Below are positions 8,883 through 58,750 of a DNA stretch of 64,000 bases, one piece after another. The notes beneath the pieces were generated by a model. That model was not told where the DNA came from. It searched no databases and saw nothing but the letters and a program-made list of their open reading frames with translations. A program made the translations under genes and the position numbers. Positions within the stretch are counted from its first letter, which is position 1; each line of letters begins with the position of its first letter. This stretch comes from Paraspadella gotoi. Lineage: Eukaryota; Animalia; Chaetognatha. The DNA is taken from contig CM119267.1 in NCBI GenBank assembly GCA_051294375.1, forward strand, positions 9,791,458 to 9,855,457, given 5' to 3'.

Positions 8883-9621
8883 TCAGCTCTCGCCCTCCCC
8901 AGTGATCCAGCTCTGCTCGACGATGGCTCTCACGCGCTTCTCGTACTCGCGCTTGTTCTCCTGGTAGAGCTGCGCCGCCTGCGAATTGGCGGGGGAGTTG
9001 GGGTTGGGTTCGTCGAGGAGGGACTGGATCGACGTGAGGATGGCGGAAACATCGTAGGTCGGAGACCAGCGATTCTGGGTTGGGAAGAAAGAGAGAATTA
9101 ATAAAATAAGCCTAATACCCCCACCCCCAAAAAATTAGGGGGGGAATATTGAAATAGATCGCCCAACCTGCAATATATCCAGGCAGATGCTGCCGTCTGC
9201 ATACACATTAGGATGAAACATTTTCGAAACGAAACTGCAGGAAAGAAAAAAAAAACCGATTAGGTTAATATTTTCGAATCAATTATATTTTAAGTTTTAA
9301 TTCGCATCGTCCTTCGGCCCCCCACCCCACCCCCAAACAAAAAAGTTACCGAACGGTCGGGGGCTTGTTGGGATATTCCTCCGTAAATTCAATGGTGAGC
9401 TTGAAAGTCCCGTCCTCAAATGGCGTGTCATGGGGACCAAATATCACAGCATTCCACACCTGTCGGAAGTCATAATTTTATTCACTGTCACTTTCGCCGC
9501 AAACTCCTTTCAATATTACCATAATATTGTTCTCTGTCGGAGCGCCGCTGACGCCCGCTGGAGGGTCCTCCTGGAGCTTTTTAAAGTCTCTCATGAGACG
9601 ACGTCTGGCGGGAGTGGACAT
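8883..9621 (-). CDS. UBE2A: Ubiquitin-conjugating enzyme E2 Rad6/UBE2A (4 exons)
   Basis: Spliced translation [55 protein letters not shown]...|[70 protein letters not shown]...EGES*. Confidence 0.97.
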
Positions 9622-10176
9622 TTTTGTTAGGAGGGGGGAGGGGGAGGAGACGAGAGAATTACGGGGGAGGAGGGAGGTTTAGCCAATAGGGGAAGGTTTA
9701 TCGACGAGAGGCGTTTGACGAGTAGTAGAGTTTCAAGTCAACCAATCTTGAGAAGGTCCACGAATATTTTTTTTTATTTGTTGATCCAAATATATCATAA
9801 ATGACGTCTTAGCTCGAGTAGCGATTTAGTTTTATTGCATTAAACGTTCATTTCCAAATCATTAAGTTTTTTTTTCTCGACTTGACAAAAGATTGAACAC
9901 GTAAAGGGAGGAGTCAAGAAAAACGGATACAAAACGTCAAATCCTGTTAACGTTAAGATGCACGACAAGCAGTTCCACCAAGATGAGGTAACGTCAGATC
10001 AGTGGCTTCGCTACGTACTACTTGTGAAAGGGGGGTGGGGAGGCAATGAATGAAAAAAGATGTCACTCGGAAGTAAACTTCAATAAATAAAGCGTTAGCA
10101 CACAATCGATCAGTTCCGATAGCTTAGAAAAAATTGAGCCCTAAAACGGGTTTTTGGGTGGTGAAAAATCAGCAAG

Positions 10177-55180: not shown

Positions 55181-56559
55181 CAATCAATCAATCAATCAGA
55201 GAGAGATAGAAACTTTTAAAAAATTCAAATAAATGTGTCTTTTGGTTTTCTAATTTGAACTCTTTCCACTCCTACGATTCCATCAAAAAATTTATATCCA
55301 GCTTTATCACATACTTTCCTACCCACACACAAAATTCCATTTCGAATTATCTATCCAATTTTTAATAAACATAATAATTATGAGTAAATTTAAGTAAAAA
55401 TACTTCAAGTAAATATGACTTTTGTTTTTTCCATTTTTACTCATTTCCACTCGCACGATTCCATCGAAACTTTATATCCAGCTCAATCACACACTTCCCT
55501 ACCATCATACAAAAGTCAATTGTCAATTGCCCTATCCACTCATAAGCAATTGGCGTTCAAAATAGTGAAATATATTTTTTTGTTTTTTCCATTTAAACCA
55601 ATTTCAACTCGCACGATTCCCTCGAAACTTCATATCCATCTCAATCACACAGTTTCCTACCCACACACAAAAATTTCATACCAATCCATCCATACAATCA
55701 CGAGTAATTGGAGTTTTTTGCTAAGGTGGGACGGACGGACGGACGGACGGACGGACAGACAGACAGACAGACAGACAGACAGACAGACAGACAGACAGAC
55801 AGACAGACGACGACGACGGACATCGTTTTTTTTGCATAATTTATCATAATTCGATGTTCTGACATGATATAAGTGTGTGGCCCGACAATATTGAGGGGGG
55901 GACCGAAAAAGTGAGTTATAGAAGTCGGGATCTGCTGATAAGCAGATCCGACTAAAAATATTCATGGCACTTTGGTTGGCGAGCTTGCCCGTTGTCTTTT
56001 TGTTCGAGCGCGAGAAAAGATTCTGACTTAATGAAGGAATTAAAGAGGTCGCGACGACCGTGCTTTCAGTCATTTTCTTCGGGAGGAGGAGAACCTGGCT
56101 TCGCCGCTTCAACCGTGACACTAAGAGACGGCGCCTAATCGGCTTTAAGGTCGGACCCCTCTGGAAACACTCGATTGAAAATGTTCTCGAATTAGAAAGA
56201 AGAGCTCAGTCTCGTCGGGTGGATTTCGTCGAGGGTCCAAATAGTGAGGGAAACTCTTTGCCAGAATAACCGGGATTTTCAATTATGGAACCCTTAGGGT
56301 TTTTCAATTGAGTCAGATGGTTAGCGTCACCAATGTGTGACCTCTTCGATAAATACATTTGCATAGTTAATAAATAGTTACTGAGAAGTAACAAAAGTAC
56401 CCACTACTATCAATCTCGTGACATTGACAAGAAATCAACTAGTCCACCGTTCAAGTAATAATCGACAAAATGTTTAGCAGATTTTTTTTTTTTTCCATTT
56501 CACGAGGCAACAAACAATAGAATCATGGTTAAATAACGAAACGGGCAGGCGAAAGGAGT

Positions 56560-58750
56560 TCATTGGCCACTCGGCGTTCTGGGTTTGTCACCGGTCGTCG
56601 GTGGAACCGGAAGAATAACTGTGGTAGGGGCGTTGGAGGCGCGAAGACCCTTGGTGATGATATCCTTACTATCGCCGGTCAACCTGGGTATATTTTGCAA
56701 TTTTCAATCGCGGTTGATAAAAGCAACCCAGAATCGAAAACGAATCCGCCCACTAACGAGATCGACTTTTCCGCCATTTTTTTCGCCGCAGTCGGTGGCT
56801 CTCGTCCTTCGATGACCGCTTTGATATCGTCTGAGTCCAAGGTTTCGTATCTGTAGCGTTCAGAAAAATTATAAGACCTGTTTATTTAAACACGCGTGTG
56901 GTAATTCGCCTTCGTCTTACAGGAGTAAGGCGTCGACGAGATTGTTGTGCTCGGTTTTGTGCTGCTCCAAAATCGACTTGGCGCGTTTGTAGCCTTCATC
57001 AAGCAGCTTTTTGATCTCTAAGTCAACCAGTTCTTTCATGGATTCGCTGAGAAGACGAGCCTAAAAATCGAGTCCAAAATAATACATAGGTTAGAGTTTA
57101 ACCGCATTCCTCAGTCACGACGTACTTCATGGTAAGTCCTCGTCCCCGCGGCATCGCTCATTCCAAACAGTCTGACGATTTGCGAAGCGATGAGCGTGGC
57201 CGTTTCGAAGTCGGAAGTGGCGCCGGTGGCCACGTTTTCCTCTCCCAACGCCATCTCTTCCCCAACCCGACCGCCCATGCAGACATCGATGCGGGCCAAA
57301 AGCCGGCCTCTCGTAGTGTCGTACTCTCGGTCTTGCATCTGATCCAATCGACCCAGCGTCTGACCACGAGGAACGATGGTCACTTTGTTGATCGGGTCGG
57401 ACTGTGGGATAAGAAAGACGAGTTGTCTCGTCGATGTCTCATGACTTACAAAACCATTGCCGACTTACGTGTTGCGTAAAGTAATTTACTATTGTGTGGC
57501 CTGCCTCGTGCGATGCGGTTCTCTTAACCGAAAGGTCGTCGTCAATTCGATTCTTCTTTTCGGGCCCCATCCGCTCCTTATCCAAGGCCCATTCCAAGTC
57601 TATCATTGAAACAAGTGCTGCAAAAAAAGGGGAACGCTATATTAAATATCATTGGGTTACCACTAAAAAACACCATAGTCAGTACCGGCGTTGTCTCTGG
57701 CGGCCTTGATGGCTGCCTGATTAACGACGTTTGCGATTTGAGCGCCTAAAAATCCGACAGTCTTCTTTGCCAAATTCTCTGCATTGACTTCGACGCTGTC
57801 AGCTTTGATCTTGCTCAGGTAATGGTCAAACAATTCAGTTCGCCCTATGAACGAGAATAAAGAAGAGAGAAGAGATGGTAGAACAACAAAACTAATCAAT
57901 TTTAGTACTTGAGCTTCACCTTTGAGATCCGGTGGCCAAACTTGTACTTCTACGTCAAATCTTCCTGGCCGAAGCAAAGCTGGGTCGAGATTCTCTCTCT
58001 TATTGGTGGCGCCTAGAGCGGCGAAAAATTGAAAGATAACGACAAATGTAAAATTTTAAAATCAACATTTAATATTACCCAAAACAACAACTCCTTCCGA
58101 CTTATTAAAGCCGTCCATCTCCGCCAAAAGTTGGTTAATGGTCTGATTGGCGTAGGGATGGAGTTGGGAAGAGGTTCGCTTGGCTCCGCAAGTATCGATC
58201 TCGTCGATGAAGAGGACGCAAGGCGCTTTGGCTTTGGCAGCGGCAAAGAGCTGTCTCACCCGCTTGGCGCCAGTTCCCACAAATATCTCGTCGAACTCGG
58301 AACCGGAGGCGTGAAAAAAGGGAACGCCTGGTAAGGAGGTGATAAATCAAGAACCACAGAATCATAGATGTCGTAGACACTCAGTCAATTCGACTAACCA
58401 GCCTCCCCGGCGACTGCACGGGCCAGCAACGTTTTCCCGATGCCCGGCTTTCCCACGAGCAAGACCCCTCTCGGCATGCGGCCGCCGAGGGCGGAAAATC
58501 TTTCGGGATCTTTGAGGAACTCGACTATCTCGATCAACTCTTCCTTGGCCTCGTCTACGCCCTTAACGTCCTTGAAGGTAACATTGACCTCTTCGGGCTT
58601 GACTTCATGCTTATTCATGTTCATGGACATGGTGACGCCACCGGCGACGCCGGATAAACCGTTCCAAAGAAACGAAAGGAGCTGAATTATGATCAACAAC
58701 GTCACGACGGTCCATAAAATACGGATCACGCGTTGAACAGGTTTGACACT
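56560..58750 (-). CDS. YME1L1: YME1L1 i-AAA mitochondrial metalloprotease, 3' exons only (5' exons not in this window)
   Basis: [106 protein letters not shown]. The exact last exon and stop codon are uncertain. Confidence 0.92.

What the first reader, a model, noticed from the sequence alone, without database searches (positions are those of the whole stretch)
8883..58750. Seventeen consecutive co-directional genes with operon-sized spacers: candidate giant animal operon(s)
Seen in sequence: every gene from YME1L1 to UBE2A (~50 kb) is on the - strand; random orientation would give odds of about 1 in 2^16. Approximate stop-to-next-ATG spacers in nt: GNPAT>UBXN7 116, CCZ1>PTBP 170, SelU>Ras-like 174, UBXN7>CHORDC1 204, PTBP>SelU 219, RPL15>PDIA5 229, ACBD6>RPL15 250, CRAT>ACBD6 301, EMC3>CCZ1 312, PEPD>GNPAT 404, CLPTM1L>FRS2 432, CHORDC1>UBE2A 555. 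Only four are over 1 kb. The shortest leave little room for a 3'UTR, terminator and promoter. Established: polycistronic transcription resolved by SL trans-splicing occurs in nematodes, tunicates, flatworms and chaetognaths, is enriched for housekeeping/growth genes like these, and usually spans few genes. Inference: this is one very long unit or several adjacent ones (possible breaks at 18321-19533, 28432-31411, 41913-42977, 51887-56559), possibly in a lineage where operons are not described.
Basis: partly seen in the sequence, partly recalled or inferred. Interest (0 to 1): 0.82.

Follow-up and report, generated by a model that had tools for sequence, protein, structure and literature searches.

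The report
Arrow-worm cluster of adjacent operons
Seventeen housekeeping genes lie head to tail on one strand in what protein matches mark as an arrow-worm genome, and spliced RNA assemblies run across six of the eight gaps tested, so they likely form two to four adjacent operons cut apart by spliced-leader trans-splicing, a mechanism already known in arrow worms; the longest unit would hold up to ten genes.

Summary
Observation confirmed: 17 genes on the - strand, and all 12 quoted spacers exact. The odds were overstated: about 0.15-0.17 such runs are expected per 20-22,000 genes by coin flips. The organism is most likely a chaetognath: its RPL15 groups (99% support) with proteins whose N-terminal extensions translate the published chaetognath spliced leader. 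Operons and SL trans-splicing are already described there (PMC2481426; PMC12460157: 18% of genes, longest nine). In one RNA run (X1), spliced contigs span 6 of 8 junctions laid, including the proposed 1.2-kb break Ras-like>PEPD. No leader was seen on these transcripts, and spacer acceptors score no better than shuffles (p=0.46). Best reading (0.7): two to four adjacent SL-resolved operons. EMC3-UBE2A as one ten-gene unit, above the reported nine: about 0.3. One 16-17-gene unit: about 0.08. The scan already noted a nine-gene operon-like cluster elsewhere in this genome. New member of a known kind.

The parts
56679..58749 (-). YME1L1-like AAA protease, 3' part only (8 exons, 528 aa); 5' exons lie outside this model
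   Evidence: weak AAA hit
48679..51886 (-). CRAT-like carnitine acyltransferase, 12 exons, 655 aa; candidate head of the upstream block
47562..48377 (-). ACBD6, 2 exons, 245 aa
46305..47311 (-). RPL15, 5 exons, 205 aa; close relatives carry the chaetognath spliced leader
42978..46075 (-). PDIA5-like, 12 exons, 765 aa, five WCGxC sites, ends KDEL
37129..41912 (-). CLPTM1L, 8 exons, 567 aa
31412..36696 (-). FRS2-like PTB adaptor; ends fixed, inner exons only partly resolved
27234..28431 (-). EMC3, 5 exons, 255 aa; candidate head of the ten-gene block
25243..26921 (-). CCZ1, 2 exons, 535 aa; X1 record 3 runs from the (TC)n repeat above it into PTBP
22356..25072 (-). PTBP, 10 exons, 526 aa
21003..22136 (-). 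SelU/MnmH-like, intronless CDS, 377 aa
19534..20828 (-). Ras-like protein with degenerate G motifs, 5 exons, 313 aa; introns match X1 depth exactly
18321..19533 (-). 1213-nt spacer Ras-like>PEPD, crossed by one contig (X1 record 2, piece 17810-19697)
16777..18320 (-). PEPD, 2 exons, 489 aa
16373..16776 (-). 404-nt spacer PEPD>GNPAT; not shown bridged. X1 record 1 is computed to begin at or within 4 nt of the AG at 16392-16391; an ATTGG box lies 74 nt above the ATG
13930..16372 (-). GNPAT, 7 exons, 670 aa
11763..13813 (-). UBXN7, 6 exons, 553 aa
10177..11558 (-). CHORDC1, 7 exons, 318 aa
8883..9621 (-). UBE2A, 4 exons, 156 aa; last gene of the run, X1 record 1 computed to end near 8701

Best explanation
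The 17 same-strand genes, in what is likely an arrow-worm genome, likely form two to four adjacent operons, each predicted to be transcribed from one upstream promoter and cut into single mRNAs by 3' cleavage plus spliced-leader trans-splicing. Proposed blocks: CRAT-ACBD6-RPL15-PDIA5 (perhaps on through CLPTM1L and FRS2), EMC3-CCZ1-PTBP-SelU-Ras-like-PEPD, and GNPAT-UBXN7-CHORDC1-UBE2A; the last two may be one ten-gene unit. Shown: gene order, spacers, cis-splicing, and spliced RNA continuous across six junctions. Inferred from the literature on the phylum: Pol II reads through each poly(A) site, the upstream mRNA is cleaved and polyadenylated, and a capped 33-36-nt leader is joined to an unpaired AG just above the next ATG, with no operon-specific leader. 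Inferred and untested: where the promoters are; the 4.8-kb and 3.0-kb gaps are the likeliest, and internal promoters (GNPAT, UBE2A) are possible.
For: Lineage: window RPL15 is 93-95% identical over about 205 aa to a set of environmental proteins and 75.5% or less to all others compared; it sits with them in a 9-row clade at 99% SH-aLRT. Two of them carry exact translations of the published chaetognath leader SL3.2 (10 and 9 residues; 2 of about 300 proteins then fetched), and three more carry similar extensions. So RPL15 is trans-spliced in relatives. Phylum: 18% of genes in operons, about half trans-spliced (PMC12460157 section 10); RPS14-PCNA operon with 3 nt between poly(A) site and acceptor (PMC2481426 passages). 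RNA: X1 pieces directly cross CCZ1>PTBP, SelU>Ras-like, Ras-like>PEPD, UBXN7>CHORDC1 and CHORDC1>UBE2A (table 8). GNPAT>UBXN7 follows from record length and depth: three records plus my gene models reproduce the depth to 0.0 in 13 of 30 bins, six of them holding introns. X1 behaves as RNA: it holds 0.61 of the words of 42900-52000 against 0.52 expected for CDS only, 0.63 for exons plus spacers and near 1 for DNA. 11 of 16 spacers are 500 nt or less, median 306.
Against: No leader was seen on any of the 17 transcripts: the six X1 loose ends displayed are not leader-like, and 122 rows were hidden. The best AG in the 130 nt above each ATG scores no higher than in dinucleotide shuffles (sum 77.8 against 76.6 +/- 9.9, p = 0.46). 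A contig across two genes shows no single transcript: a few read-through molecules or overlapping UTRs would join it. All bridging rests on one run of one study. ATTGG/CCAAT boxes lie 66 and 125 nt above UBE2A and 74 nt above GNPAT, which would fit own promoters, though the count is not significant. Only 6 of 16 spacers are under 250 nt stop-to-ATG.
Confidence: 0.7

Rival explanations
1. The genes are tightly packed but separately promoted; many may still receive a leader as monocistronic genes, and the joined contigs come from low-level read-through or 3' UTRs that overlap the next gene's 5' end.
For: A 17-gene run is not rare enough genome-wide. In P. gotoi about half the genes are trans-spliced but only 18% are operonic. 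Acceptor test negative. CCAAT-type boxes above 6 of 16 ATGs within 140 nt. Contigs need only a few spanning reads.
Against: Six of eight junctions are joined, with spacers of 116-204 nt that must hold a 3' UTR as well; a 1.2-kb spacer is covered end to end by one contig. The phylum has thousands of such units.
Confidence: 0.15
2. All 16 genes from CRAT to UBE2A (43 kb), or 17 with YME1L1, are one transcription unit, a small trypanosome-like directional cluster in an animal.
For: No opposite-strand gene interrupts the run. One of four long gaps (1213 nt) is crossed by RNA, so gap length alone does not mark a break.
Against: The 4792-nt gap is full of repeats and the 2980-nt gap is AT-rich, both ample for a promoter. 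PEPD>GNPAT is not shown bridged and record 1 starts inside it. The longest published unit in the phylum has nine genes.
Confidence: 0.08
3. The bridged blocks are stable spliced polycistronic mRNAs that are not resolved by a leader and are translated by re-initiation or internal entry.
For: The bridging contigs are fully cis-spliced and show no displayed leader.
Against: Relatives' RPL15 carries the leader. Relatives' PEPD and ACBD6 lie on contigs of single-gene size, mostly 1-2.5 kb. Assemblers are expected to clip short leader branches (own knowledge).
Confidence: 0.04

Closest known systems
Chaetognath SL-resolved operons: Paraspadella gotoi genome-wide set (PMC12460157; section 10 read, methods passages) and Spadella cephaloptera RPS14-PCNA (PMC2481426; section 12 read, passages)
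   Same: Same phylum by RPL15 and leader peptides; head-to-tail housekeeping genes; short gaps; protein-metabolism functions (RPL15, UBE2A, UBXN7, PDIA5, EMC3).
   Different: The block EMC3-UBE2A would hold ten genes against a reported maximum of nine, and includes a 1.2-kb gap that a <250-bp rule could split unless UTRs fill it. The operon table (xlsx) could not be read, so this cluster may already be listed.
Tunicate operons: Ciona (up to seven genes by SLOPPR, PMC7986045 passages) and Oikopleura (PMC11067885, PMC6389100 passages)
   Same: No operon-specific leader; operons inferred from proximity; loosely related housekeeping genes; internal promoters are common (693 in Oikopleura).
   Different: Other lineage, unrelated leader; intercistronic distances there are about 1-60 nt between mRNA ends, which I could not measure here.
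C. elegans operons (PMC2776167, PMC7668243 passages)
   Same: Polycistronic pre-mRNA resolved by trans-splicing; unrelated housekeeping genes.
   Different: Nematodes use a specialised SL2 for downstream genes; none was found in P. gotoi.
Kinetoplastid directional gene clusters (recalled, no call)
   Same: Long same-strand runs resolved by a leader.
   Different: Tens to hundreds of almost intronless genes; here 17 genes with 80 modelled introns, in a genome where most genes are not operonic.

Membership tests
SL-resolved animal operon (chaetognath type) | Adjacent genes on one strand with no opposite gene between | tested here: met
   17 of 17 on the - strand
SL-resolved animal operon (chaetognath type) | Short distance between genes (<250 bp in PMC12460157; 500 bp or less in PMC11067885) | tested here: met
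   Met for part of the run: 6 of 16 stop-to-ATG spacers under 250, 11 of 16 at 500 or less; blocks of 4, 2, 5 and 4 genes at the 500 rule. mRNA-end distances would be shorter but were not measured.
SL-resolved animal operon (chaetognath type) | The lineage performs SL trans-splicing | tested here: met
   RPL15 clade with SL3-bearing proteins; phylum-wide reports
SL-resolved animal operon (chaetognath type) | RNA continuous across the gene junctions | tested here: met
SL-resolved animal operon (chaetognath type) | Leader on the mRNAs of the downstream genes in this organism | tested here: inconclusive
   None among displayed loose ends, 122 rows hidden; seen only on relatives' RPL15; PTBP and ACBD6 searches gave no leader-bearing relative
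SL-resolved animal operon (chaetognath type) | Unpaired 3' splice site above each internal ATG | tested here: inconclusive
   An AG lies within 130 nt of all 16 ATGs, but scores equal shuffles, p = 0.46
SL-resolved animal operon (chaetognath type) | One promoter at the head, none required inside | not testable with these tools
   Needs CAGE, ATAC or H3K4me3; motif scan only
Kinetoplastid-type directional gene cluster | Tens to hundreds of nearly intronless genes per unit | tested here: not met
   17 genes, 80 modelled introns, median 73.5 nt

The most novel reading that the evidence does not exclude
CRAT to UBE2A (16 genes, 43 kb) is read from one promoter as a single polycistronic unit, nearly twice the nine-gene maximum published for arrow worms, with long 3' UTRs hiding junctions that distance rules split; arrow-worm chromosomes would then carry trypanosome-like directional housekeeping clusters. 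The milder form, one ten-gene unit EMC3-UBE2A of 19.5 kb, has a probability of about 0.3.
Probability: 0.08. Interest if true: 0.7.

Novelty: new member of a known kind. Interest (0 to 1): 0.3.

Why it matters
Operons cut apart by spliced leaders are established in arrow worms, so the mechanism is not new. The locus is useful as a test of how long an animal operon can be. A contig crosses a 1.2-kb stop-to-start gap, which suggests that distance cut-offs can split real units and understate operon length. If long reads and cap mapping showed one promoter for EMC3-UBE2A, it would exceed the published maximum for the phylum; if for all 16 genes, it would change how chaetognath gene regulation is described.

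Tried and rejected
No whole genome was held, so genome-wide strand runs and spacer sizes could not be measured. RNA was laid only on 8300-27040; the seven junctions from YME1L1>CRAT to FRS2>EMC3 are untested, and so is any long silent stretch as a control. Runs X2-X4 gave mostly short low-complexity matches and a few exact pieces at depth 3-4: not used. The apparent lack of cover at about 16392-16469 and the unclear PTBP>SelU junction are holes in filtered contig data and count neither way. X1 record 2 has 42 letters above 22134 that the displayed tables do not place: unexplained. DNA contamination as the source of the bridges: unlikely, since intron-holding bins show zero residual depth and the word share fits RNA, though assemblers can drop short introns as bubbles. 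Nematode, priapulid or xenacoelomorph origin: considered, dropped. The PEPD tree put the window in a 7-row unnamed clade (100%) and named no phylum. The metagenome scan returned 49 loci, none above 67% identity, so no synteny test. PTBP exon 1 found no homologue; ACBD6 relatives showed no leader peptide (5 of 150 sequences read). Rfam: 0 matches in the window. Searches for a published longest animal operon returned nothing relevant; maxima of about 8 for C. elegans and about 11 for Oikopleura are recalled, not checked.
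Full report
Observation. I read the - strand from 59000 to 1 and built exon models by coordinates. 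Sixteen genes give open frames with GT-AG introns (80 introns, median 73.5 nt); FRS2 has firm ends but unresolved inner exons. Pfam names 16 of 17 pieces as expected; SelU is backed by an Atlas score of 0.97 to MnmH clusters, the Ras-like gene only by a 0.88 lead. A spliced + strand gene at about 4064-6972 closes the run below UBE2A. Above, YME1L1 lacks its first exons and is repeated at 60804-64000 with 96.7% identity and 72 gap openings next to runs of 10 and 25 N, which looks like an assembly duplication, so the upper end is unknown.

Chance. The figure of 1 in 2^16 holds for one pre-chosen spot. Among 20,000-22,082 randomly oriented genes, 0.15-0.17 runs of 17 or more are expected. The run is suggestive, not decisive.

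Organism. PEPD found five unnamed environmental proteins at 73-77% and named animals at 64-71%; the tree gave an unnamed clade. One RPL15 exon found environmental proteins at 94%. Over the whole protein the window's RPL15 is 93-95% identical to that set and at most 75.5% to the rest, and it groups with them at 99% (29 selected relatives). Several carry N-terminal extensions that look like translated 5' UTR. Two contain exact translations, in two different frames, of leader SL3.2 of Flaccisagitta enflata in Table 3 of PMC2481426 (section read; test); three more carry similar ones. The window is therefore most likely a chaetognath, and RPL15 is trans-spliced in its relatives. I place it to phylum only. 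An earlier, unchecked scan note reached the same phylum on another piece of this genome.

RNA. One run, X1, holds the sequence (share 0.61). That share fits exons plus most spacer DNA (0.63) better than CDS alone (0.52) or DNA. Laid on 8300-27040, its contigs skip the predicted introns. Record 1 (6179 nt) has pieces 9518-10271 and 11436-12666, which cross CHORDC1>UBE2A and UBXN7>CHORDC1. Record 2 (4466 nt) has 20622-22134 and 17810-19697, which cross SelU>Ras-like and the whole 1213-nt Ras-like>PEPD gap. Record 3 (2666 nt) has 24920-26465, across CCZ1>PTBP. With my gene models these three records reproduce the listed record coordinates and the depth to 0.0 in 13 of 30 bins; the other bins hold further contigs or stray matches. 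This places GNPAT on record 1 too. So 6 of 8 junctions in the laid stretch are crossed by one contig, five seen directly and one by arithmetic. By length, record 1 begins at 16391, the G of an AG 18 nt above the GNPAT ATG, though the depth suggests 3-4 fewer aligned letters; that is a weak hint of a processing site or start there. Record 3 ends exactly at a PTBP donor and, at its other end, 30 nt into a (TC)n repeat in the EMC3>CCZ1 spacer. Limits: one run, contigs rather than reads, and the tool warns that a contig across two genes shows no single transcript.

Against. No displayed loose end is a leader (122 rows hidden). An acceptor matrix trained on the 80 introns finds AGs above all 16 ATGs but no better than in shuffles (p = 0.46); the spacers are T-rich, so the test is weak. 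Poly(A) hexamers appear in 12 of 16 spacers; at RPL15>PDIA5 one lies 34 nt above an AG, a geometry like the published RPS14-PCNA junction, but that AG scores low. CCAAT-type boxes above GNPAT and UBE2A leave room for internal promoters, which are common in Oikopleura operons (PMC6389100 passages).

Mechanism. Most likely Pol II starts above CRAT and above EMC3, and perhaps above CLPTM1L and GNPAT. Introns are removed as it goes (shown). At each junction the upstream mRNA is cleaved and polyadenylated while the downstream RNA receives a capped leader at an unpaired AG (inferred from the phylum). Incompletely resolved molecules would give the joined contigs (inferred).

Known. Chaetognath trans-splicing and an operon were reported in PMC2481426 (passages; section 12) and PMC2566580 (passages). 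PMC12460157 (section 10; methods passages) finds 10,197 of 21,072 genes trans-spliced, 18% in operons defined by gaps under 250 bp, no operon-specific leader, and a longest operon of nine genes. Its operon table is an xlsx too large to read; the three readable supplements hold no list, so this cluster may already be in it. On stop-to-ATG distances the run breaks into blocks of at most 4 genes at 250 nt, 5 at 500 nt, and 6 plus 10 at 1300 nt. Two scan notes describe a nine-gene and a 14-gene same-strand cluster elsewhere in this genome (unchecked), so long clusters may be usual here.

Verdict. A real and unusually long same-strand cluster, best read as adjacent operons of a known kind in a phylum known to have them. 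What remains open is length: a ten-gene unit (about 0.3) would pass the published maximum by one; a 16-gene unit (about 0.08) would be striking. Interest 0.3.

Noticed in passing
window 23525-24039 (-): PTBP's 515-nt intron has a stop codon just inside its 5' end, a second donor at about 23967 and long pyrimidine tracts. X1 record 3 ends exactly at this donor and extra depth lies over the intron: likely an autoregulatory poison-splicing event, as recalled for vertebrate PTBP.
   Followed up: partly
window 21003-22136 (-): Intronless SelU/MnmH-like tRNA 2-selenouridine synthase inside the cluster; nearest Atlas clusters are mostly bacterial, one of them 53% bacterial. Origin by transfer not tested. 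A possible 5' UTR intron lies at 22240-22137.
   Followed up: partly
window 19534-20828 (-): Expressed Ras-like gene whose P-loop and other G motifs look degenerate by eye; no Pfam hit for the exon scanned, Atlas lead 0.88. Possible pseudo-GTPase.
   Followed up: partly
window 42978-46075 (-): PDIA5-like protein of 765 aa with five WCGxC thioredoxin sites, more than the three recalled for vertebrate PDIA5.
   Followed up: no
window 60421-64000: Second, indel-ridden copy of the YME1L1 region beside runs of 10 and 25 N; 59541-59840 is also repeated at 60431-60730. Likely assembly artefact.
   Followed up: partly
window 4064-6972 (+): Multi-exon gene with a signal-peptide-like start and a hydrophobic C-terminus; no Pfam hit for the pieces scanned.
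   Followed up: partly
window 52800-55800 and 4337-4465: Dispersed repeat family with several copies in the YME1L1>CRAT gap, plus an 18-nt tandem array at 54771-55202.
   Followed up: no
window 8934-9184 and 23092-23116: X1 also holds diverged contigs matching UBE2A (depth 371) and PTBP (two contigs), likely expressed paralogues.
   Followed up: no
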